From the NCBI GenBank assembly GCA_002432945.1, contig DJHE01000019.1, forward strand, positions 35,301 to 99,300: a stretch of DNA of 64,000 nt, written 5' to 3'. The stretch is from Synergistaceae bacterium UBA5827. GTDB lineage: Bacteria > Synergistota > Synergistia > Synergistales > 79-D21. The position numbers and the translations under genes are program-made. Below the pieces are notes generated by a model. The model was not told where the DNA came from. It ran no database searches and worked only from the letters and a program-made list of their open reading frames with translations. Below, one piece after another: positions 8,154 through 60,207 of the stretch (position 1 is its first letter; the number at the start of each line of letters is the position of its first letter).

Positions 8154-8207
8154 GGCGATATCTTAACATTGGACACCCTAGCCACTTTCGGCCTTTTCGC
8201 CAGTGCA

Positions 8208-8216
8208 TGGTAAAAT
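8208..8216 (+). promoter_or_regulatory. possible extended -10 promoter (TGGTAAAAT) for the pilin-like gene
   Basis: A TGnTAAAAT element sits about 50 nt upstream of ATG 8265. No convincing -35 element. Confidence 0.35.
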
Positions 8217-8264
8217 TCATTAAAAATACAAGCTCGATCTGGAAAGGGAAAGCGGGGGAGGAAA

Positions 8265-8789
8265 ATGAAAAGGCTCGGCAGAAAAAGGTGGGCTTTCACT
8301 CTCGTGGAGATCCTGATCGTGCTGCTCCTCATCGGCATCCTGGCCGGGGCCCTGATGCTCGTTTCGTTCTCGGTCACAGCAAAAGCAGAGGCAACCCGAA
8401 TTGTCGAAGACATGAGGGCAATGAAAAGCGCCGCAATGCTTTACTACGCCGATTTCGGGCTTTGGCCTGTCTGGATGAAAAGCGGAACTACAATAAGGGA
8501 CGCCAATAACAGGGCGACCCCCGACAAATACTTGGAAAGTATCCCCTTGAGAGGTGACCACTGGGTCGGGGTAGCTGGGGTTTCTGGAGATCTCGGAGAA
8601 GCTACGGTCATCTTCGTTTCGACATCCGTGAGCTCAACGACCCTCGAAAGGCTGGGAGTAATGGGCTCTGGTTTTCCCCTTTACGGGATTACCGTAGCCG
8701 GGAGAATCACGGCTATACCAGACAACCCGGATGTCTTTGATGCTTCCACTCACAACGCCGCACTCTGGTACATAAGGAAAAACCAGTAA
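8265..8789 (+). CDS. prepilin-type N-terminal cleavage/methylation domain protein (type IV pilin / pseudopilin-like)
   Basis: Class III signal-peptide architecture: MKRLGRKRWA-FTLVEILIVLLLIGILAG. RBS GGGGGAGG. Confidence 0.8.
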   Translation: MKRLGRKRWAFTLVEILIVLLLIGILAGALMLVSFSVTAKAEATRIVEDMRAMKSAAMLYYADFGLWPVWMKSGTTIRDANNRATPDKYLESIPLRGDHWVGVAGVSGDLGEATVIFVSTSVSSTTLERLGVMGSGFPLYGITVAGRITAIPDNPDVFDASTHNAALWYIRKNQ

Positions 8790-8793
8790 TCTT

Positions 8794-8997
8794 CTAGCGT
8801 TTCTCCTCCGGTTCTTCCACGAATTCTTCCTCGCTGAGAAGCTGGTCGTGATTTGCGTCACCGGCAAGGAAAAGGGGACAGGCGTAGCGAAAGTTGCCGT
8901 CGTCGGGAAAGGCCTCCACCAATATCATCTTCCGGCCGCACCAGCACTGCAGGGTCATCTCGGGTGAACTGAGCTCCTCGTGGTTTTTCTCTTCCAT
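8794..8997 (-). CDS. small acidic Cys-containing hypothetical protein (67 aa)
   Basis: ORF directly downstream of the PHP gene on the same strand. Start chosen at the ATG preceded by GGGGGGTGA. Contains CWCG...C and an acidic tail. No family recognised. Confidence 0.4.
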   Translation of the reverse strand: MEEKNHEELSSPEMTLQCWCGRKMILVEAFPDDGNFRYACPLFLAGDANHDQLLSEEEFVEEPEEKR

Positions 8998-9032
8998 GCC
9001 GGTCACCCCCCCTTGTCCCATATTTTATCACT

Positions 9033-9818
9033 TCATTGTGCTAGATGGCCTTTGTCCAGAAAAGATTTCTCTCCCCATGGGTCAAACACTCCTCTTCCTG
9101 CCTCGCCGCGAAGCGCAAGCTTCAACTCTGAAAAACTGGGCGTTGCTACCCGGAAAACCGTAGAGCAAAGGCACTCCATCTGGTCCAGGGAATGGGCATC
9201 GGAGTTTCTCAACAGGGGAAAATTCGTGTATTTGGAACGGAATGGCTGCGCCTTCCCCGGAGTGATCCGGCAGGTCAATTCAAGAGCGTCAACCGGGTAG
9301 TCGATCGGGATGGGACCCAGAATCGCCGGGTAGGAAAAGGCTTCCCTGTCGATGTGGCTGAGAAAGCAGATTCCCTCTCTTCGCCTGGCTTCGCGCACGA
9401 TGGCGTCGATCCCGTGACGGGCCCCCTGGACAAGGAGGATCGGCTCCTCTCCAAGGATCTGGTTCTCGTGATCGATCAGGATCTGGGGACCGAAAAGCTC
9501 CGGCCGGTTCTGGATTTTTGGAAAACCCTCCCAAAGCCAGGCCTCGAAATCCAGCGCTTCTTCCGGCGTCCCGAAAAGAGTGACGGCATGGATGTCTTCC
9601 GCGCTCTGGACCTCTATCCCCGCCAGCACGAGCAAGCTTTTCCCCTCAGACGCTTTCTGGACCGCCATGGCATTCCTGGCCGTGTTGTGGTCCGTCACCG
9701 CCAGGACATCGATCCCCAGGTCGAGGGCACGCGAAACAATGTCCGGCGCTCCCATGTCGAGCCCGCCGCATGGGGAAAGCACGGTATGAAGATGAAGGTC
9801 CGCCCGGACCAGGCGCAT
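9033..9818 (-). CDS. PHP-domain metal-dependent phosphoesterase
   Basis: N-terminal ADLHLHTVLSPCG and VLAVTDHNT are PHP motifs. The start lies 4 nt after the stop of the upstream DRTGG gene. Confidence 0.85.
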   Translation of the reverse strand: MRLVRADLHLHTVLSPCGGLDMGAPDIVSRALDLGIDVLAVTDHNTARNAMAVQKASEGKSLLVLAGIEVQSAEDIHAVTLFGTPEEALDFEAWLWEGFPKIQNRPELFGPQILIDHENQILGEEPILLVQGARHGIDAIVREARRREGICFLSHIDREAFSYPAILGPIPIDYPVDALELTCRITPGKAQPFRSKYTNFPLLRNSDAHSLDQMECLCSTVFRVATPSFSELKLALRGEAGRGVFDPWGEKSFLDKGHLAQ

Positions 9819-9822
9819 TGGG

Positions 9823-10158
9823 CTAGCCTTTCAATCCCAAGTCGTGAAGGGCCCCGCAGATTTCGAAAGGCGATCCTGCGGCAGTGGCCAGGGCGATGTT
9901 CTCCTTTTTGCAGCGATCCAGCAACTCAGGATCCGGTGTTCTCCCCGATGCCAGGATAACGAGGGGAATCTCCTTGAGAACCGCCACGGCAGCCAGGTTG
10001 ACATGGGTCTGGAGGGTCACCCAGGCCGCTCCTTCCGGAGCGCCCCCCATGACAAAGCTCAGAAGGTCACCCACGACCCCGCGGGAAACGGAGCGATTCC
10101 CGTCCCCGCCGTTATGGACATCAAGCTTGAGGCTTTCGATCAGGGACAAGACCGTCAT
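9823..10158 (-). CDS. DRTGG-domain protein (111 aa)
   Basis: The VVGDLLSFVM...LQTHVNLAAVAVLKEIPLVILASGRTP layout is typical of DRTGG. ATGA overlap with the upstream gene's stop at 10155-10158. The ORF-track start at 10326 is an extension. Confidence 0.75.
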   Translation of the reverse strand: MTVLSLIESLKLDVHNGGDGNRSVSRGVVGDLLSFVMGGAPEGAAWVTLQTHVNLAAVAVLKEIPLVILASGRTPDPELLDRCKKENIALATAAGSPFEICGALHDLGLKG

Positions 10159-11468
10159 TTCGCGTGCTTCCTTTCGTGAAAGGCATGCGGCAGCTTGCCG
10201 CTCAGGGCGGTGATCTCCTCCCCAAGGACGGAGATACGTTCCCGCAGCTTGAAGACACAATCGGTGATTTCCCCTTCGCCCCGGACCACGTCTTCGGCGA
10301 GGGCCCTGCACGAAGGACGCCCGCAAGCTCCGCAGTCGATGTGGGGGAGCTCGGCGTATACCGCCTGCATCGTTTTCAGTTTCTTCATCGCCTCGTCAAG
10401 GGTGTCTGCCAGGGAAGGTCGAGGCCGGGGCTGGATAGGCTGTTCGAGTTTCCAGATTCCGGTCTCGTAAAGATCAGCCAAATCGGCTTTTTCTCTCTCA
10501 GTGGCAACCCACTCGATTGGCTGTCTTGAGAGTCTCAGTTCCGACAGGAAGCGGGACTCCGCGTTCCCTATCCCGCCTATGCAACCAAGGTCGCAAACCC
10601 GGCATTCCACGAAATCGACACCTTTCAATCGCCCCAGCTCCAGGTCCTGCAGGAGGTCGATCGTGTTCCTGAGTCCCGAAACGGCCATTGTCGTGATGTT
10701 CTTCTTCGAGAAGGCCTTGATGTGGCGGCTTTCTCCACCCCTCAGGGCCCAGGCCAGCCAACGGCTTCCAACCGGGTCCAAGGCCGCGCCATCCACTTTT
10801 GGGCCAGCAGCCAAAAGATCCCTCGCCAGGCGCTTGACTGAGACGACATGGCCCATGGTGCTTTTTTCCCTTCCCACCGGTCCTCTGACCAGCATGACCT
10901 TGGCACTGCAAGGCGTCACGAGGATCACGCCTTCATCCGAACCGGTTTCCTTGCGCCAAAGGAGAGTCCCCGTTTCCAGGGGAGTTTCTGTCTCCACGAG
11001 GCGGTGGAGCAACTCGGGAAACCGGACCTGGATCAACCTGACCACCGCAGGGCAATAGATGGAAATGAGAGGCAGGCTTTCCTTGGAAGCTTCTTCGATC
11101 TGCCTGGCCGTGGCGAAGGCCGCGAGGTCAAAAGCCCTGGCCGTCTCGTCGAAAAGGTCCTTTATGCCCAGTGAGGCCAGCGCCTTCCTGACGAGACCCG
11201 GGGTCCAGTAATGGGAAAATTGGGCGCAGAAGGTGGGATCGGCCATAAGGGTGGCCGGTCCGTGGCTCCGGATCAGATCCCAGTCGTCCTCGTCGAGGGC
11301 AAGTGCTTTCTCCCTGCAGCTCCTAAGACATTCCCCGCAGTCTATGCACAGGTCGGACAGGATCCTCACCTTGCCGTCAACCACCCTGAGGGCCTCGGTC
11401 GGGCAGGACTTGATGCAGTTCACGCAACCCTTGCAACTGCCTTCGATGATCTTGATCCCCGTTTCCAT
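10155..11468 (-). CDS. [FeFe]-hydrogenase-like Fe-S protein (2x 4Fe-4S ferredoxin motifs + Fe-hydrogenase large-subunit C-terminal-like core + C-terminal CX2CX4CX16C domain)
   Basis: Two ferredoxin motifs: CKGCVNCIKSCP and CIDCGECLRSC. Variant H-cluster motifs: SIYCPA, TPCSAK, CDLGCIGG. C-terminal DCGACGRPSC-x16-C. Start at ATG 11468 is preceded by GGAGG at 7 nt. Confidence 0.8.
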   Translation of the reverse strand: METGIKIIEGSCKGCVNCIKSCPTEALRVVDGKVRILSDLCIDCGECLRSCREKALALDEDDWDLIRSHGPATLMADPTFCAQFSHYWTPGLVRKALASLGIKDLFDETARAFDLAAFATARQIEEASKESLPLISIYCPAVVRLIQVRFPELLHRLVETETPLETGTLLWRKETGSDEGVILVTPCSAKVMLVRGPVGREKSTMGHVVSVKRLARDLLAAGPKVDGAALDPVGSRWLAWALRGGESRHIKAFSKKNITTMAVSGLRNTIDLLQDLELGRLKGVDFVECRVCDLGCIGGIGNAESRFLSELRLSRQPIEWVATEREKADLADLYETGIWKLEQPIQPRPRPSLADTLDEAMKKLKTMQAVYAELPHIDCGACGRPSCRALAEDVVRGEGEITDCVFKLRERISVLGEEITALSGKLPHAFHERKHAK

Positions 11469-11472
11469 CGGC

Positions 11473-11919
11473 CTACCTCCTGTCCCCTGGTCCTTCATGG
11501 AAAAGGATCGTTGCTGTGAGGGTCGTCCCCTTGCCGACTTCCGACTCGATTTCAAGGTTATCGGAATTGCGCTTGATGTTCGGCAGCCCCATTCCCGCTC
11601 CGAACCCCATCTCCCTGACCCTGTCGGGAGCCGTGGAAAAACCCTCCCGCATGGCCAGATGGAGGTCGGGAATCCCGGGTCCCCGGTCCGTGGCCTGGAT
11701 CGTCAGTTTTTCCGGCGTGATAACCGCTCGAAGGGTTCCCCCACCGGAATGGATCACGAGGTTCATCTCCGCCTCGTAAGTGATGACCGAAGCACGCCGC
11801 GATATCGCGGACGGGACTCCCAGCATGATGAGGGTTTCCTTGATCTGGTTGGACGCTTCCCCGGCGGCAAGGAAGTCGTCCCCCCTTACCGTGAATTCGA
11901 CCTCGTAATGACTGTCCAC
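11473..11919 (-). CDS. GHKL (HATPase_c) ATP-binding protein, anti-sigma-factor/Ser-kinase-like, no HisKA domain
   Basis: N box EAEMNLVIH, G1 DRGPGIPD, G2 GFGAGMGLPN. GTG start with GGGAGG 8 nt upstream. 148 aa. Confidence 0.8.
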   Translation of the reverse strand: MDSHYEVEFTVRGDDFLAAGEASNQIKETLIMLGVPSAISRRASVITYEAEMNLVIHSGGGTLRAVITPEKLTIQATDRGPGIPDLHLAMREGFSTAPDRVREMGFGAGMGLPNIKRNSDNLEIESEVGKGTTLTATILFHEGPGDRR

Positions 11920-11922
11920 ACA

Positions 11923-12288
11923 CTATGCCTCCCGGGAGGGGATGATGCACGGGGACAGGCCAGCCTTGTAGAGCAGCCCGCAGGTTTCATACATGCTCAT
12001 GGAAGATACCAAAAGCGGCATCCCAACGTTCTTGGCCAGGGAAACCGCCTCTTCCTGGGGTCTTTTCCCCCTTACGAAGACAACCGCGGGAATATCCATC
12101 ATCTGGGCTGTCCGGACGATCTGCACGTTGGTCAGCCCGGTCAGGAGAAGCGTCCCGGGCCAGGCAAAGGCCAGGACATCGCTCATGAGGTCCGAGGCAT
12201 AGGCGTTCTCGATCTCAACCGTGTCGAGCAGGTTCTCTCCATAAAGGATTTCCGCTCCGATGCAGGATACGATCTCTTTCAGTTTCAA
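11923..12288 (-). CDS. DRTGG-domain protein (121 aa)
   Basis: ASDLMSDVLAF...LLLTGLTNVQIVRTAQMMDIPAVVFVRGKRP is DRTGG-like. TTG start with GGGGAGG 9 nt upstream. First gene of the operon. Confidence 0.75.
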   Translation of the reverse strand: MKLKEIVSCIGAEILYGENLLDTVEIENAYASDLMSDVLAFAWPGTLLLTGLTNVQIVRTAQMMDIPAVVFVRGKRPQEEAVSLAKNVGMPLLVSSMSMYETCGLLYKAGLSPCIIPSREA

Positions 12289-12357
12289 GCAGTTCGACCT
12301 CCCCGGTCAATGCCAGCATGGTGGTTCTCTGTGATAAAAATAACATATTGGCTCCGA

Positions 12358-12371
12358 AACGTCATGACGTT
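12358..12371. promoter_or_regulatory. perfect 14-nt palindrome AACGTCATGACGTT in divergent intergenic region (candidate operator)
   Basis: Read directly from the sequence. It lies between the DRTGG operon start (12288) and the symporter start (12421). Confidence 0.4.
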
Positions 12372-12420
12372 ACACTGTGCCCGGCAGGACGATCTTGAAA
12401 GCGAAAGAGGGGGAAGTGCC

Positions 12421-13788
12421 ATGTTCACCTTCGGGGCTGGCGTCGGGCTTGTTATCCTGGCGTTTGTCATCCTGGGAACTTTCACGGCACGGGGAGTCCG
12501 TAGCGCTTCCGACTATGCCCTGGCAGGCCGGAAAGCCGGTTCCCTGGAGGTCAGCGGGATTCTCCTCGGAGCCTTGGTCGGGGGCGCCAGCACCGTGGGG
12601 ACCGTGGAGATGGCCTATCGTTTTGGCCTCTCCGCGTGGTGGTTTACCCTCGGCGGAGGCATCGGGTGCCTGATCCTGGGCGTTTGGTTTGCCCGCCCTC
12701 TTCGAAGGACGGAGCTTTCAACCATACCGGAACTCCTTGAAAGCCAGTACGGCCCTAAAACCGGCCTTGTTGCCCTGGCCGCATCAACGATTGGAACCTT
12801 TATCTCGGTCGTTGCGCAGTTTCTTGCCGGGCTGGCCATGCTCCAGGGGATCTGGCCCCTTTCCGACACGGCCGCCGCAGCCGGCGTCGCGCTGGCAATC
12901 CTGGGATTCATCCTCCTCGGGGGGGTGAAAAGCTATGGCGCGCTGGGAAAGGCAAAGATCGCCTTTCTCTACCTTGTCCTTGCCATCTGCGCCGGAGTAG
13001 CCGCCGCCGGGGGAGCGACACTGCCTTCCCTATGGGAAGGGCTACCCTCCAACCCATGGTTCAACCTCTTCGGCCGCGGCCTGGGACCTGACCTGAATGC
13101 AGGCCTGTCTCTCGTTGTCGGCGTGATGACGACCCAGATCTACATCCAGGCGATTTTCTCAGCTTCAAGCGAGAGGACGGCTCGCAAGGGAACCCTCCTT
13201 TCTGCGGCACTGATGCCGCCGCTGGGACTCTTGGGCATCTGGGTCGGCCTAGGCATGAGGGTCCAGCAACCGGGACTTGTCGCATCCCAGGTGCTCCCAG
13301 TCTTCATCTCGCAGAATTTTCCGCCCCTGATCGCAGGGTGCCTCTGGAGCGGTATCGCCATAACGATCATCGGAACCGCGGCAGGGCTCTGTTTCGGCAT
13401 CGCCACGAACCTTGCACGGGATCTATCGCCATTTTTCGCCCGGAAAAAACGGACTGATGGGGAACTCCTCTGGCTTAGCCGCACAACCCTGCTGGTGCTT
13501 GTATTCAGCGCAGCAGCCATGGCCCTCCTCGCCCCGGGTTCCCTGATCCTCTCCTGGAGTTACCTCAGCATGGGCCTTCGGGGTGCCGGGACCTTTCTAC
13601 CATTCTCCATCGCCATTCTCGCGCCTGGCCGCCTCAATCCAGGATGGGCTTTCACTTCTTCCCTTGCCGGCCTGGCGATCACGCTGGCCTGGCCCTTGAC
13701 AGGCCTACCCGGGAATCCACTCTTCGCGGGCCTTTCCATTTCTGCCCTCTGCTGTGCCCTCGGCTGGGCAAGAAAAGGGACGGCTTGA
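12421..13788 (+). CDS. sodium:solute symporter (SSS) family transporter
   Basis: 455 aa, polytopic and hydrophobic, with an SSS-like N-terminus (DYALAGRKAGS...GGASTVGTVEMAYRFG). Start at ATG 12421 after AGAGGGGGAAG. The ORF-track start at 11233 is an antisense extension. Confidence 0.8.
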   Translation: MFTFGAGVGLVILAFVILGTFTARGVRSASDYALAGRKAGSLEVSGILLGALVGGASTVGTVEMAYRFGLSAWWFTLGGGIGCLILGVWFARPLRRTELSTIPELLESQYGPKTGLVALAASTIGTFISVVAQFLAGLAMLQGIWPLSDTAAAAGVALAILGFILLGGVKSYGALGKAKIAFLYLVLAICAGVAAAGGATLPSLWEGLPSNPWFNLFGRGLGPDLNAGLSLVVGVMTTQIYIQAIFSASSERTARKGTLLSAALMPPLGLLGIWVGLGMRVQQPGLVASQVLPVFISQNFPPLIAGCLWSGIAITIIGTAAGLCFGIATNLARDLSPFFARKKRTDGELLWLSRTTLLVLVFSAAAMALLAPGSLILSWSYLSMGLRGAGTFLPFSIAILAPGRLNPGWAFTSSLAGLAITLAWPLTGLPGNPLFAGLSISALCCALGWARKGTA

Positions 13789-13801
13789 ATAAAGCCGTCC
13801 C
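13771..13801 (-). terminator. hairpin terminator for the adenosine-kinase/HAD transcript
   Basis: 10-bp stem GGGACGGCTT / AAGCCGTCCC (13777-13801), followed on the minus strand by TTTTCT. It overlaps the stop codon of the convergent symporter gene. Confidence 0.5.
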
Positions 13802-13831
13802 CAAGTTGATACGTGCCTGTTCAAAAGTCTC

Positions 13832-14329
13832 CTAGCGCTTGTAGCCGATGATGCTCCTGAGCAGGCGCTTTCGGGCCGCGACATGGGTATCCTCCTCGAC
13901 GCCCCTTGAAGAAAAACCGTCTACGACTCCCGCTATCCCGCGTCCCTGGCCAGTCTCAAAAATGAGGACCTCCAAGGGATTCGCTGTCGCGGCAAATATC
14001 CCGCAGACCTCCTGGACGCCCTTGATGCGATCCAGCACATTGATCGGGTATCCGTTGCGGATAAGGACGACGAAGGCGTGACCGGCGGAAAGGGCCTGGG
14101 CATTTCTGACGGCAGCGTCTACAAGGTCCGGGGAATTGCCGTCGTGGCGAATGAGACAGGGTTCCGAGGCCTCGCAAAAGGCGATACCGAACTGCAGGCT
14201 GGGTGATGAGGTCACAAGAGCTTCGAAAAGGTCCTCCACGGTCTTGATGAAATGGCTTTGGCCCAGGATGATATTGCACTCTTCGGGGATCTCCATCTTC
14301 ACAACTTGCCATCCCTTGATTTCCGACAT
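13832..14329 (-). CDS. adenosine-specific kinase family protein (PF04008-like)
   Basis: 165 aa. NIILGQSHFIKTVEDL...FCEASEPCLIRHDGN...GHAFVVLIRNGYPINVL matches my recollection of this family. Confidence 0.7.
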   Translation of the reverse strand: MSEIKGWQVVKMEIPEECNIILGQSHFIKTVEDLFEALVTSSPSLQFGIAFCEASEPCLIRHDGNSPDLVDAAVRNAQALSAGHAFVVLIRNGYPINVLDRIKGVQEVCGIFAATANPLEVLIFETGQGRGIAGVVDGFSSRGVEEDTHVAARKRLLRSIIGYKR

Positions 14330-46844: not shown

Positions 46845-48035
<1,191 letters not shown>

Positions 48036-60120: not shown

Positions 60121-60207
60121 TGGTGTCGAGGGGGGGAGTTGAACCCCCACAGGCTAATGCCCACTAGAGCCTGAGTCTAGCGCGTCTACCAATTCCGCCA
60201 CCCCGAC
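60121..60207 (-). tRNA. tRNA-Leu (anticodon CAG), class II with long variable arm, CCA encoded
   Basis: Hand-folded. Acceptor GTCGGGG/CCTCGAC (one G:U pair). D-arm GGCGGAATTGGTAGACGC. Anticodon stem CTAGA/TCTAG with loop CTCAGGC. T-arm GGGGGTTCAACTCCCCC. 3' ACCA. Confidence 0.9.

What the first reader, a model, noticed from the sequence alone, without database searches (positions are those of the whole stretch)
8794..12288. Tightly coupled DRTGG / GHKL-ATPase / [FeFe]-hydrogenase-like / DRTGG / PHP operon: candidate redox- or H2-sensing regulatory module with no hydrogenase nearby
Seen in sequence:
- Five minus-strand genes (12288 to 9033) are joined by 3-4 nt gaps or ATGA overlaps, and each has its own SD. 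A sixth small Cys-containing ORF (8997-8794) trails them.
- The kinase-like protein has complete N, G1 and G2 ATP-binding boxes but no HisKA/dimerisation domain.
- The window contains no STAS, sigma factor, response regulator or DNA-binding partner.
- Instead, two paralogous single-domain DRTGG proteins flank the kinase and the Fe-S protein, and a PHP phosphoesterase closes the operon.

Established knowledge: hydrogenase-like proteins next to kinases or phosphatases are generally regarded as putative sensory [FeFe] hydrogenases. DRTGG is a domain of unknown function.

Inference:
- The Fe-S protein is the sensor.
- The GHKL protein is a Ser/Thr kinase or partner-switching ATPase.
- The DRTGG proteins are its substrates or partners, and the PHP protein is the opposing phosphatase.
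- From memory, similar gene sets sit beside electron-bifurcating hydrogenase operons in anaerobic Firmicutes and Thermotogae. I know of no biochemical description.
- Here the flanks are a pilin-like gene and a symporter, so the output of the module is unclear.
Basis: partly seen in the sequence, partly recalled or inferred. Interest (0 to 1): 0.62.

Follow-up and report, generated by a model that had tools for sequence, protein, structure and literature searches.

The report
Putative hydrogen-sensor operon, orphaned from its enzyme
This is a conserved five-gene operon built around a "Group D" iron-hydrogenase-like protein already suspected to be a hydrogen sensor; it is a new member of a known kind, but comparing it with relatives points to the sensor's long-sought partner proteins.

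Summary
Five minus-strand genes (12288-9033) are joined by 3-4 nt gaps or an ATGA overlap. They encode DRTGG-1, a 148-aa GHKL ATPase, a 437-aa [FeFe]-hydrogenase-like protein, DRTGG-2 and a PHP phosphoesterase.

The hydrogenase-like protein belongs to the known Group D (M2e) putative sensory [FeFe]-hydrogenases. Their one characterised member is TamHydS, so a biochemical description does exist.

The five-gene set recurs in 60 of 69 informative loci. In Bacillota it usually adjoins HydABC. In other Synergistota it adjoins NiFe-HydABCSL or a formate dehydrogenase built on the same NuoE/NuoF core. In this window and its Synergistaceae relatives it stands alone, and the 64-kb window holds no hydrogenase, STAS, sigma factor or response regulator.

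New evidence:
- The GHKL protein is SpoIIAB/RsbW-like.
- The two DRTGG proteins are paralogues sharing an invariant D-L-[M/L]-S.
- Natural fusions (DRTGG1-GHKL, GHKL-M2e, DRTGG1-M2e, M2e-DRTGG2) argue that these four proteins form one complex.

The closest solved relatives of the PHP protein are nucleic-acid and nucleotide phosphoesterases, so its role as a protein phosphatase is unproven. The sixth small ORF is lineage-specific and not part of the module.

The proposed signalling mechanism is inferred, not shown.

The parts
11923..12288 (-). DRTGG-1: single-domain DRTGG protein, 121 aa, TTG start.
   Evidence: Pfam DRTGG E 1.8e-5. The family alignment A2 has invariant D33, S36, T50, G74 and K75. 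In an AlphaFold model of the fused homologue, this domain matches AF1212/2IOJ (Pfam DRTGG) with TM 0.80 and rmsd 2.0 A. It is fused to the GHKL protein in at least 120 protein clusters.
11473..11919 (-). SpoIIAB/RsbW-type GHKL ATPase, a putative Ser kinase; 148 aa, GTG start, no HisKA domain.
   Evidence: Pfam HATPase_c 4e-10 and HATPase_c_2. The best NCBIfam match is SpoIIAB, below its cut-off. The family profile against PDB gives SpoIIAB 8e-12 and RsbW 1.5e-5, ahead of histidine-kinase CA domains. The model matches SpoIIAB with TM 0.85 and rmsd 2.0 A. The N, G1 and G2 boxes are invariant.
10155..11468 (-). Group D (M2e) [FeFe]-hydrogenase-like protein, a putative H2 sensor; 437 aa.
   Evidence: Pfam: Fer4 x2, Fe_hyd_lg_C 3e-21 and FeS PF04060 7e-14, with no PAS domain. 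Invariant Cys residues: eight N-terminal, four H-cluster (C139, C187, C292, C296) and C379-x2-C382-x4-C387-x16-C404. The AlphaFold model (pLDDT 85, pTM 0.83) finds only [FeFe]-hydrogenases as top PDB matches.
9823..10158 (-). DRTGG-2: a divergent paralogue of DRTGG-1, 111 aa, with an ATGA overlap to the upstream gene.
   Evidence: hhalign of its family against the DRTGG-1 family gives probability 99.7%, E 3.5e-26. 24 of 27 family members hit Pfam DRTGG. Invariant D31, L32, L33, S34, W46, T48. It is fused to the C-terminus of M2e in eight representative clusters.
9033..9818 (-). PHP-family metal-dependent phosphoesterase, 261 aa.
   Evidence: Pfam PHP 1.2e-7, above the cut-off. Invariant H9, H11, D43, H44, E69, H77, H155, D207 and H209 in the family. 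The nearest solved relatives are EndoQ 2.5e-13, 3e0f, TM0559, RNase AM and a pAp phosphatase.
8794..8997 (-). Trailing small Cys-containing ORF (67 aa). It is lineage-specific and not part of the conserved module.
   Evidence: No family hit. tblastn finds it only in the same population and in L003, at 77% identity. In other Synergistaceae radA follows PHP instead.
12289..12420 (.). 132-nt divergent intergenic region between the operon and the SSF symporter gene. It presumably holds the promoter and operator.
   Evidence: Read from the sequence. It contains TGTGATAAAAATAACA (12330-12345), a 9/10 match to TGTGA-N6-TCACA, and the perfect palindrome CGTCATGACG (12360-12369). No sigma-70 consensus hit was found.
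12421..13788 (+). Divergently transcribed sodium:solute symporter (SSF family, 455 aa). It is a syntenic neighbour; membership of the system is unproven.
   Evidence: Pfam SSF 1.6e-11; NCBIfam assigns only the sss superfamily. The same adenosine-kinase-like gene, SSF gene and module order is found in T. velox, Cloacibacillus and Synergistes loci.

Best explanation
The region is one operon encoding a Group D (M2e) [FeFe]-hydrogenase-like H2/redox sensor together with its signalling partners.

Shown here:
- It lacks a PAS domain and the group-A proton-relay cysteine; Tyr138 occupies that position.
- It carries the Group D hallmarks: Thr at the CpI-M353 position, plus a GGE glutamate and E288 that correspond to TamHydS E252 and E289.
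- Its gene is locked in a conserved order with a SpoIIAB/RsbW-type GHKL ATPase, two paralogous DRTGG proteins and a PHP phosphoesterase.
- In other lineages DRTGG-1, GHKL, M2e and DRTGG-2 are fused pairwise into single polypeptides.

Inferred:
- These four proteins form one complex.
- H2 binding or oxidation at the H-cluster causes a conformational change, as reported for TamHydS. The change passes through the C-terminal cluster domain to DRTGG-2, which sits where Group C sensors carry their PAS domain.
- This alters the ATPase or kinase state of the GHKL protein.
- The GHKL protein phosphorylates the invariant Ser of the D-L-[M/L]-S motif on a DRTGG protein. DRTGG-1 would play the acceptor role that DHp plays beside the CA domain of a histidine kinase, or that SpoIIAA plays for SpoIIAB.
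- PHP resets the system.
- The output controls NuoE/NuoF-based (Bfu-type) H2- or formate-producing oxidoreductases. These are encoded next to the module in most genomes but are unlinked here, so in this organism the module acts in trans on a target outside the window.
For: Identity of the sensor:
- Pfam domains.
- Invariant Cys sets and Group D residues, compared with the TamHydS residues reported in PMC8163306, PMC10407848 and PMC13104023.
- [FeFe]-hydrogenase fold of the model.

Operon:
- Junctions of 3-4 nt or an ATGA overlap, each with a Shine-Dalgarno sequence.
- Internal terminator-like sites are no more frequent than chance.

Conservation:
- Five genes in the same order in 60 of 69 loci with adequate flanks, including T. 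velox.
- GHKL plus M2e is the minimal pair in spirochaete loci.

Complex formation (natural fusions):
- DRTGG1-GHKL: L054 and at least 120 clusters, including cultured Thermosediminibacter, Caldanaerovirga and Thermovenabulum.
- GHKL-M2e: 607 aa in 6 of 7 members of its cluster.
- DRTGG1-M2e: 534 aa in 6 members.
- M2e-DRTGG2: for example an 80-member cluster of 533-aa proteins seen on many contigs.

Kinase-like nature of the GHKL protein:
- SpoIIAB and RsbW are the closest solved relatives by sequence profile and by fold.
- ATP-binding boxes are invariant.

Candidate phospho-acceptor:
- D-L-[M/L]-S and a Thr are the only residues invariant in both DRTGG paralogue families. They are retained in the fused proteins.

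Target:
- The module adjoins NuoE-'HisK'-'HydD'-NuoF operons ending in HydA (Bacillota), NiFe-HydSL or formate dehydrogenase (Synergistota).

Literature:
- M2e enzymes are proposed sensors and sit upstream of bifurcating hydrogenases and next to kinases (PMC3561251, PMC8163306).
- TamHydS has low turnover and high H2 affinity, and shows an H2-induced change in secondary structure. Its partners are still unidentified (PMC13104023).
Against: - No protein of the module has been shown to be phosphorylated, and no experiment links any Group D enzyme to regulation.
- The closest solved relatives of the PHP protein act on nucleic acids or nucleotides, not phosphoproteins. PHP is never found fused to the other four and is missing or replaced in a few loci.
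- TamHydS is catalytically competent, though slow, so a metabolic role is not excluded.
[quoted passage not shown] The signal path through that domain is therefore conjecture.
- No DNA-binding or sigma-factor output is encoded in the module or the window.
- Whether this organism has HydEFG maturases or a Bfu-type operon could not be checked.
- Fusion of acceptor and kinase fits constitutive partners equally well, with no phosphotransfer at all.
Confidence: 0.55

Rival explanations
1. Nucleotide or metabolite signalling rather than protein phosphorylation. The DRTGG proteins bind a small ligand (a nucleotide or NAD(H)). The GHKL protein is an ATP-driven conformational switch. PHP degrades a nucleotide signal such as pAp or an oligo- or cyclic nucleotide. 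The hydrogenase-like protein still acts as the sensor.
For: - The nearest solved relatives of the PHP family are EndoQ, RNase AM, a pAp phosphatase and TM0559. No protein tyrosine or serine phosphatase reaches E 0.01. NCBIfam hits are RNase RNM and nucleoside bisphosphate phosphatase.
- DRTGG domains occur in ligand-regulated proteins: the CBS-DRTGG regulator of family II pyrophosphatase, 3l2b/3l31, is the best PDB match. From my own knowledge, unverified here, they also occur in the N-terminal regulatory region of Pta.
- PHP is the only member never fused to the others.
Against: - The GHKL protein is closest to true Ser kinases, SpoIIAB and RsbW.
- Both DRTGG paralogue families keep an invariant Ser and Thr.
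- The parallel Group C systems pair the sensor with Ser/Thr kinases and serine phosphatases (PMC5707799, PMC11837493).
- PHP enzymes as a family do include phosphomonoesterases (own knowledge).
Confidence: 0.2
2. Anti-sigma or partner-switching output. The GHKL protein sequesters a sigma or transcription factor encoded elsewhere. The DRTGG proteins act as STAS-like antagonists whose phosphorylation state decides release.
For: - SpoIIAB and RsbW, the closest relatives, are both kinases and anti-sigma factors.
- Source databases name the protein 'anti-sigma regulatory factor'.
- No DNA-binding domain is present in the module, so a trans-acting factor is needed if control is transcriptional.
Against: - No STAS, PP2C or sigma-factor gene occurs in the window or in any of about 90 related loci.
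- The GHKL protein is covalently fused to DRTGG-1 or to the hydrogenase in many lineages. This fits poorly with a freely switching partner.
Confidence: 0.12
3. The hydrogenase-like protein is a working, slow catalytic hydrogenase or electron-transfer subunit. The accessory proteins serve its assembly, activation or protection rather than signalling.
For: - TamHydS interconverts H+ and H2 reversibly (PMC8163306).
- All cluster ligands are intact.
- The fusions show a tight complex.
- Tyr138 could act as a proton relay (inference).
Against: - TamHydS has low rates and high H2 affinity, and lacks the group-A proton pathway (PMC8163306, PMC10407848).
- The module accompanies three different catalytic enzymes (FeFe, NiFe and formate dehydrogenase), which a dedicated catalytic subunit would not do.
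- A SpoIIAB-like ATPase is typical of signalling.
Confidence: 0.1

Closest known systems
Group D (M2e) putative sensory [FeFe]-hydrogenase; type example TamHydS of Thermoanaerobacter mathranii. Also listed as M2e in PMC3561251: TTE0887, Cthe_0335, Athe_1292, Csac_1857, Cphy_3798, Teth39_1463.
   Same: - Same architecture: two N-terminal [4Fe-4S] clusters, the H-domain and a C-terminal Cx2Cx4Cx16C cluster, with no PAS domain.
- Loss of the CpI-C299 proton-relay cysteine.
- Ser/Thr at the CpI-M353 position.
- Conserved glutamates of the alternative proton path.
- D378, C379, E392, D393, D403 and C404 at the same residue numbers as reported for TamHydS.
- An adjacent histidine-kinase-like ATPase gene.
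   Different: - Tyr instead of Ala at the CpI-C299 position. This holds for all Synergistota members examined.
- It is not next to a HydABC operon.
- It comes from a diderm Synergistales bacterium rather than a Firmicute.
- Sequence identity to Bacillota members is only about 30-38%.
Group C (M2f) sensory [FeFe]-hydrogenases: TmHydS, Ruminococcus albus HydS, Thermoanaerobacterium HfsB.
   Same: - A hydrogenase-like sensor with the same N- and C-terminal clusters and no proton-relay cysteine.
- Encoded with a kinase and a phosphatase, next to catalytic hydrogenases (PMC5707799, PMC11837493, PMC13104023).
   Different: - Group C carries a fused PAS domain and is paired with Ser/Thr kinase and PP2C-type serine phosphatase genes.
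- Here a DRTGG protein takes the place after the C-terminal cluster, fused there in some lineages. The kinase is SpoIIAB-like and the phosphoesterase is of the PHP family.
SpoIIAB-SpoIIAA-SpoIIE and RsbW-RsbV-RsbU partner-switching modules.
   Same: - A GHKL protein of about 145 aa with no HisKA domain, whose closest sequence and fold relatives are SpoIIAB and RsbW.
- A small alpha/beta partner protein with a conserved Ser.
- A dedicated phosphoesterase gene in the same operon.
   Different: - No STAS domain, no PP2C phosphatase and no sigma factor.
- The partner is a DRTGG-fold protein and is often covalently fused to the kinase.
- The input is a metalloprotein rather than a stress or developmental signal.
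Regulatory [NiFe]-hydrogenase system HoxBC-HoxJ-HoxA of Cupriavidus necator (Ralstonia eutropha).
   Same: The logic is the same: a slow, high-affinity hydrogenase forms a complex with a kinase to report H2 (as summarised in PMC5707799 and PMC8163306).
   Different: - The metal centre and protein families are unrelated.
- HoxJ is a PAS-containing histidine kinase acting on a response regulator.
- No response regulator is present here.
'hisK' and 'hydD' genes inside Bfu-type operons, for example Acetomicrobium mobile NiFe-HydABCSL (PMC8880783, PMC9304861).
   Same: - These unexplained regulatory or maturation genes lie in the operons that sit next to the module in most genomes. 46 of 49 loci have 'HisK' and 44 of 49 have 'HydD'.
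- They are the likeliest downstream link.
   Different: - They are absent from this window.
- 'HisK' is a different GHKL protein, about 185-194 aa with a histidine-kinase-like CA domain.

Membership tests
Group D (M2e) [FeFe]-hydrogenase | H-domain of [FeFe]-hydrogenase fold with the four H-cluster cysteine ligands. | tested here: met
   Fe_hyd_lg_C 3e-21. C139, C187, C292 and C296 are invariant in 45 diverse homologues. The L1 and L3 motifs align to HydA2. The model's top 50 PDB matches are all [FeFe]-hydrogenases, with TM (query-normalised) 0.55-0.65.
Group D (M2e) [FeFe]-hydrogenase | Two N-terminal [4Fe-4S] motifs and a C-terminal Cx2Cx4Cx16C motif, with no PAS domain. | tested here: met
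   C12/15/18/22 and C41/44/47/51, plus C379-x2-C382-x4-C387-x16-C404, are all invariant. Pfam FeS PF04060 7e-14, with no PAS hit.
Group D (M2e) [FeFe]-hydrogenase | Group-A proton-relay Cys (CpI C299) absent; Ser/Thr at the CpI-M353 position; conserved glutamates of the alternative proton path (TamHydS E252, E289). | tested here: met
   Y138 precedes the ligand C139. T185-P186-C187 is present; the family has S in 20 and T in 18 of 45 sequences at position 185. E246 (in GGE) occurs in 30 of 45 and E288 in 42 of 45. The reference residues come from PMC8163306 and PMC10407848.
Group D (M2e) [FeFe]-hydrogenase | Phylogenetic placement within Group D next to reference sequences. | not tested
   No reference Group A-G sequence set was available. 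Placement rests on architecture, hallmark residues and gene context.
Group D (M2e) [FeFe]-hydrogenase | Binds a functional H-cluster and reacts with H2; HydEFG maturases are present in the genome. | not testable with these tools
   Only 64 kb of this genome was available, and it holds no maturase gene.
SpoIIAB/RsbW-type GHKL Ser kinase / anti-sigma factor | A Bergerat ATP-binding fold of about 145 aa with N, G1 and G2 boxes and no HisKA/DHp domain; closest relatives are SpoIIAB and RsbW. | tested here: met
   148 aa, HATPase_c and HATPase_c_2 only. Invariant E49, N53, D78, G80, G82, G105, G107 and G109. PDB profile search: SpoIIAB 8e-12 and RsbW 1.5e-5, against at least 4e-4 for histidine kinases. 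Fold match to SpoIIAB with TM 0.85. The score is below the NCBIfam SpoIIAB equivalog cut-off (43 against 135 bits), so it is not an orthologue.
SpoIIAB/RsbW-type GHKL Ser kinase / anti-sigma factor | Works with a STAS-domain antagonist, a PP2C phosphatase and a cognate sigma factor. | tested here: not met
   None of these is in the window or in any related locus examined.
SpoIIAB/RsbW-type GHKL Ser kinase / anti-sigma factor | Ser/Thr kinase activity on its partner. | not testable with these tools
   This needs biochemistry.
DRTGG domain (Pfam PF07085) | Match to the family model and the DRTGG fold. | tested here: met
   - DRTGG-1: 25.0 bits against a 25.2-bit cut-off. The homologous domain in the fused protein matches 2IOJ with TM 0.80, and the fused proteins carry precomputed PF07085.
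- DRTGG-2: the window copy gives no direct hit, but 24 of 27 family members hit and hhalign to the DRTGG-1 family gives 99.7% probability.
PHP phosphoesterase (Pfam PF02811) | PHP domain with conserved metal-binding His, Asp and Glu residues. | tested here: met
   32.7 bits against a 26.4-bit cut-off. H9, H11, D43, H44, E69, H77, H155, D207 and H209 are invariant in 27 homologues.
PHP-family protein phosphatases (CpsB/YwqE type) | Specific similarity to known PHP protein phosphatases. | tested here: not met
   The profile search of PDB at E <= 0.01 returns EndoQ, 3e0f, 9etk, TM0559, RNase AM, 2yb1 and PolC, and no CpsB or YwqE entry. A source database names a cluster member 'PHP family Zn ribbon phosphoesterase'.

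The most novel reading that the evidence does not exclude
DRTGG-1, the GHKL protein, DRTGG-2 and PHP make up a previously undescribed serine-phosphorylation switch that needs neither STAS nor PP2C. In it a DRTGG domain is the phospho-acceptor, the functional counterpart of DHp or SpoIIAA. The switch is hard-wired to an [FeFe] H2 sensor and controls the whole family of NuoE/NuoF-based bifurcating enzymes (FeFe-HydABC, NiFe-HydABCSL, formate dehydrogenase) through their 'HisK' and 'HydD' genes. In Synergistaceae such as this organism it has become detached and acts as a stand-alone, genome-wide H2/redox sensor. This would give the DRTGG domain its first defined function and identify the missing partners of Group D hydrogenases.
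Probability: 0.22. Interest if true: 0.72.

Novelty: new member of a known kind. Interest (0 to 1): 0.42.

Why it matters
Putative sensory [FeFe]-hydrogenases are thought to tell fermenting and syntrophic anaerobes how much H2 surrounds them. That in turn decides where electrons go: to H2, formate, ethanol or lactate.

For Group D, nobody knows how the signal leaves the protein. A 2026 study of TamHydS names identification of the interaction partners as the critical next step (PMC13104023).

This locus is an ordinary member of that group. The comparison made here adds four things:
- a fixed five-gene set;
- four kinds of natural fusion, which nominate DRTGG-1, the SpoIIAB-like ATPase and DRTGG-2 as direct partners;
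- a candidate acceptor serine;
- evidence that the module tracks Bfu-type enzymes whatever their catalytic subunit.

These points are directly testable by co-expression, phosphorylation assays and deletion in tractable thermophiles.

Tried and rejected
- The promoter and terminator scan of 8200-12700 gave no sigma-70-like site, and terminator-like sites were no more frequent than in shuffled sequence. It neither supports nor contradicts co-transcription.
- The Rfam scan of the window found only one tRNA.
- Full-text searches for DRTGG plus hydrogenase, or PHP domain plus hydrogenase terms, found nothing relevant. I could therefore not find any published treatment of the DRTGG and PHP genes. 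Zheng et al. 2014 is not held.
- The hfsABCD operon was considered as the match and rejected. HfsB is a PAS-containing Group C enzyme and HfsC is a serine phosphatase.
- I tried to find this organism's own Bfu-type operon through homologues of the 'HisK' protein. None came from the same assemblies, but the searches revealed the formate dehydrogenase and NiFe contexts.
- In loci where DRTGG or PHP genes are missing, the replacement neighbours are unrelated housekeeping genes: rotamase, CNNM, nitrilase, SpoU, racemase, LysO and one CheW. They give no alternative output.
- A Rex/CRP-like box (TGTGA-N6-TCACA) was sought upstream of the operon. Sites with at most 1 mismatch occur in 4 of 71 upstream regions against 4 of 297 random windows. 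AT-rich intergenic composition confounds this comparison, so it is inconclusive.
- The first greedy ORF caller failed in this high-GC window. It was replaced by HMM searches of stop-to-stop ORFs.
- The geometry of the DRTGG1-GHKL fusion model, such as the distance from the Ser to the ATP site, could not be measured because model coordinates are not exposed.

Full report
**1. What is in the sequence**

On the minus strand, five ORFs follow one another:
- 12288-11923: 121 aa, TTG start.
- 11919-11473: 148 aa, GTG start.
- 11468-10155: 437 aa, ATG start.
- 10158-9823: 111 aa.
- 9818-9033: 261 aa.

The junctions are a 3-nt gap, a 4-nt gap, an ATGA overlap and a 4-nt gap. A purine-rich Shine-Dalgarno sequence lies 8-9 nt before each start. 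A 67-aa ORF (8997-8794) follows after 35 nt.

Consensus scans show no sigma-70-like promoter. Terminator-like sites inside the block are no more frequent than chance. The arrangement is consistent with a single transcript but does not prove one.

**2. Domains**

Pfam gives:
- DRTGG for the first protein: E 1.8e-5, 25.0 bits against a 25.2-bit cut-off.
- HATPase_c (4e-10), and nothing else, for the second protein.
- Two ferredoxin-type 4Fe-4S motifs, Fe_hyd_lg_C (3e-21) and the PF04060 FeS domain (7e-14) for the third protein.
- PHP (1.2e-7) for the fifth protein.

The fourth protein has no direct DRTGG hit. However, a profile of its family matches the profile of the first protein's family with 99.7% probability (E 3.5e-26), and 24 of 27 family members hit Pfam DRTGG.

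The small sixth ORF has no family match.

**3. The hydrogenase-like protein is a Group D (M2e) [FeFe]-hydrogenase**

In an alignment of 45 diverse homologues (25-62% identity), the invariant residues are:
- the eight cysteines of two N-terminal [4Fe-4S] clusters;
- four cysteines at the H-cluster positions (C139, C187, C292, C296);
- C379-x2-C382-x4-C387-x16-C404.

This is the architecture the literature defines for the M2e subclass, or Group D: an F-domain, an H-domain and a C-terminal Cx2Cx4Cx16C motif, with no PAS domain (PMC8163306).

The hallmark substitutions are also present:
- The group-A motif TSCCP reads SIYCP, so the proton-relay cysteine (CpI C299) is lost.
- The CpI-M353 position is Thr. 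[quoted passage not shown]
- The glutamates of the alternative proton path are conserved: E246 in a GGE motif and E288, compared with TamHydS E252 and E289 (PMC10407848).
- D378, C379, E392, D393, D403 and C404 fall at the same residue numbers as reported for TamHydS (PMC13104023).

An AlphaFold model (pLDDT 85, pTM 0.83) finds only [FeFe]-hydrogenases among its top PDB matches.

TamHydS binds an H-cluster, turns over H2 slowly, has high H2 affinity and changes secondary structure on exposure to H2. Its partners remain unknown (PMC8163306, PMC13104023).

**4. The organism and the window**

The closest homologues come from Synergistales MAGs (89% identity) and Thermanaerovibrio velox (63%). The window is nearly identical to contigs from JGI and ENA metagenomes.

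Pfam families of the called genes on those contigs, plus direct scans, cover the whole 64 kb. The content is:
- a his operon, rubrerythrin, glutaminase, SUI1 and a pilin-like gene;
- the module;
- an SSF symporter, an adenosine-kinase-like gene, a HAD hydrolase and a branched-chain amino-acid ABC transporter;
- metK;
- the large ribosomal-protein / rpoA / secY / EF-Tu / EF-G / rpoBC cluster;
- tsaC (Sua5), tgt, a predicted 267-aa ORF not run against any family library, and a metG fragment.

There is no hydrogenase, NuoE, NuoF, maturase, STAS, sigma-factor or response-regulator gene. HMMs built from related loci confirm that HydABC-type genes are absent.

**5. Conservation of the gene set**

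A scan of one genome per species found at least 596 species with a relative; 80 loci were fetched. I clustered their ORFs and then searched all stop-to-stop ORFs with family HMMs.

- All five genes occur in the same order in 12 of 12 Synergistota loci and 48 of 57 other loci (mostly Bacillota) that have enough flanking sequence.
- Spirochaete loci and a few others keep only the GHKL-hydrogenase pair. Their other neighbours are unrelated housekeeping genes.
- The small sixth ORF is found only in this population and in one relative, at 77% protein identity. In T. velox and other Synergistaceae radA follows PHP instead.

**6. What the module sits next to**

In Bacillota:
- 50 of 67 loci (26 of 37 with wide flanks) carry NuoE - a second GHKL protein - a thioredoxin-like [2Fe-2S] protein - NuoF - HydA.
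- This operon lies either directly downstream (34 loci) or divergently upstream (14 loci).
- It is the electron-bifurcating HydABC operon with the genes the literature calls hisK and hydD. [quoted passage not shown]
- This agrees with earlier notes that M2e genes lie upstream of bifurcating hydrogenases and near kinases (PMC3561251, PMC8163306).

In Synergistota the picture is richer:
- Thermovirgaceae and other Synergistales place the module directly upstream of NuoE-HisK-HydD-NuoF followed by a formate dehydrogenase fused to a GltD-like domain. That gene is split by an in-frame stop, probably selenocysteine.
- Two other lineages place it upstream of a NiFe-HydABCSL-type operon.
- An Acetomicrobium-like locus has NuoE-HisK-HydD-NuoF right after PHP.
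- In the window's own clade (this organism, T. velox, Aminivibrio, Cloacibacillus, Synergistes) the module stands alone: 0 of 11 loci with 6-kb flanks have such genes. Cloacibacillus porcorum is reported to encode hydABC elsewhere in its genome (PMC10838667).

So "no hydrogenase nearby" is true. It is a trait of this lineage, not evidence against a link with such enzymes.

**7. The accessory proteins**

GHKL protein:
- A profile of its family finds SpoIIAB (8e-12) and RsbW (1.5e-5) as the closest solved proteins, ahead of histidine-kinase catalytic domains.
- The N, G1 and G2 boxes are invariant.
- Source databases call it an "anti-sigma regulatory factor (Ser/Thr protein kinase)".

DRTGG proteins:
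- The DRTGG-1 profile finds the DRTGG domain of the CBS-pyrophosphatase regulator (3e-4) and AF1212.
- The only residues invariant in both paralogue families are D-L-[M/L]-S (S36 and S34) and a Thr (T50 and T48).

PHP protein:
- All metal-binding residues are invariant.
- Its closest solved relatives are EndoQ, RNase AM, a pAp phosphatase and TM0559. No protein phosphatase appears.

**8. Natural fusions**

Among the family's representatives and loci I found four kinds of single polypeptide that join module proteins:
- DRTGG1-GHKL: first seen in L054. A database search then returned at least 120 clusters of about 269-aa proteins carrying Pfam DRTGG plus HATPase_c, at 39-100% identity. They include cultured Thermosediminibacter, Caldanaerovirga and Thermovenabulum.
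- GHKL-M2e: 607 aa.
- DRTGG1-M2e: 534 and 556 aa.
- M2e-DRTGG2: eight representatives of 515-563 aa.

These are not assembly artefacts. Cluster members from independent assemblies have the same lengths. For example, an 80-member cluster holds many 533-aa proteins seen on up to 27 contigs, and six 607-609-aa and six 534-aa members occur in their clusters.

The fused DRTGG1-GHKL protein models confidently (pLDDT 89.5). Its halves match SpoIIAB (TM 0.85) and AF1212 (TM 0.80). The invariant Ser and Thr are retained in the fused proteins. PHP was never found fused.

These fusions are the strongest evidence here that DRTGG-1, GHKL, the hydrogenase and DRTGG-2 work as one complex. DRTGG-2 attaches exactly where Group C sensors carry their PAS domain.

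**9. Most likely mechanism**

The components are shown; the steps are inferred.
1. The H-cluster protein senses H2 or reductant.
2. A conformational change passes through its C-terminal domain to DRTGG-2 and the bound SpoIIAB-like ATPase.
3. The ATPase phosphorylates the conserved serine of a DRTGG domain. DRTGG-1 would be to GHKL what DHp is to the CA domain, or what SpoIIAA is to SpoIIAB.
4. PHP reverses the modification.
5. The state of the complex controls Bfu-type H2- or formate-forming enzymes, perhaps through their HisK and HydD proteins.

Weak points:
- No phosphorylation has been demonstrated.
- PHP looks more like a nucleotide or nucleic-acid esterase.
- The C-terminal cluster of TamHydS does not respond to H2 (PMC13104023).
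- No output domain is encoded in the module.

The rivals are nucleotide-based signalling, an anti-sigma output and a catalytic role. They are listed separately with their tests.

**10. Verdict**

The locus is a new member of a known kind: the Group D putative sensory hydrogenase operon. It has two lineage-specific features. It is detached from any Bfu operon, and Tyr replaces Ala at the CpI-C299 position. The Tyr holds in all 14 Synergistota locus sequences, the window protein and L090, against Ala in 58 Bacillota sequences.

The locus itself is of modest interest. The family-level results may help resolve how these sensors signal: the fixed five-gene set, the fusions, the candidate serine, and the association with NiFe- and formate-dehydrogenase-type Bfu enzymes.

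Noticed in passing
L086-L092 (e.g. L090:5114-15863); L095:5161-15816; L099:5159-15817: In other Synergistota the same five-gene [FeFe]-sensor module lies directly upstream of NuoE-'HisK'-'HydD'-NuoF operons whose catalytic part is not an [FeFe]-hydrogenase. One type is a formate dehydrogenase fused to a GltD-like domain, split by an in-frame stop that is probably selenocysteine. The other is a NiFe-HydABCSL-type enzyme. The papers describing the A. mobile NiFe enzyme do not mention an upstream sensor module.
   Followed up: partly
L054:9116-9922; proteins P0497-P0616, P0125, P0177, P0231, P0127, P0146, P0208, P0209, P0214, P0233, P0245, P0265: There are four kinds of widespread natural fusion between module proteins: DRTGG1-GHKL, GHKL-M2e, DRTGG1-M2e and M2e-DRTGG2. 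Cluster members from independent assemblies have the same lengths. PHP is never fused.
   Followed up: yes
window 11055-11057 (Tyr138 codon of the hydrogenase-like gene): All Synergistota members have Tyr at the position of the group-A proton-relay cysteine (CpI C299). This holds for 14 locus sequences, the window protein and L090. Bacillota members mostly have Ala, as in TamHydS. A Tyr hydroxyl next to the H-cluster amine might change proton handling.
   Followed up: partly
window 12330-12345 and 12360-12369: The 132-nt divergent intergenic region holds TGTGATAAAAATAACA, a 9/10 match to the CRP/Rex-type TGTGA-N6-TCACA and conserved in relative L003. It also holds the perfect 10-bp palindrome CGTCATGACG. 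The test for enrichment of such boxes upstream of other modules was inconclusive.
   Followed up: partly
window 12421-14329; L001:5869-9060; L009-L012, L031: The order adenosine-kinase-like gene (PF04008), divergent SSF symporter, module (then radA in most) is kept across Synergistaceae genera whose hydrogenase-like proteins are only about 50-60% identical. The symporter shares its promoter region with the module, and its substrate could not be assigned. It may be co-regulated, or this may simply be conserved synteny.
   Followed up: partly
window 8794-8997: A small acidic ORF (67 aa, with C-W-C ... C) trails the operon. It occurs only in this population and in one relative (77% identity) and has no family match.
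   Followed up: yes
L017:6009-6752; L050:11595-12335: In two Clostridia loci the PHP position is occupied by a 246-248-aa protein that does not match the PHP model. The L017 copy, the only one scanned, has no Pfam hit at all. It could be a very divergent PHP or a non-homologous replacement.
   Followed up: partly
L083:11646-12460 (NCBI GCA_002425905.1): In this NCBI record, which encodes an identical hydrogenase-like protein, no PHP gene is called between DRTGG-2 and the small ORF. An ungapped comparison of L083 with the window gave 9,087 mismatches over 21,314 positions, which I take to indicate indels somewhere in the locus; it was not localised to this stretch. In the window and in the JGI and ENA contigs the 261-aa PHP ORF is intact.
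   Followed up: no
window 22000-60200: Most of the rest of the window is the conserved translation and transcription gene block: metK, the S10/spc/alpha ribosomal-protein operons, secY, adk, map, infA, rpoA, EF-Tu, EF-G, rpsL/rpsG and rpoBC. One tRNA lies at 60124-60207. In the related contig L094 the EF-Tu gene is called as two pieces, whereas the window ORF 46845-48035 (396 aa) is intact.
   Followed up: no
L047:9023-9487: In one Clostridia locus that has only the GHKL-hydrogenase pair, a CheW-like gene lies immediately upstream. This is a single case with no pattern.
   Followed up: no
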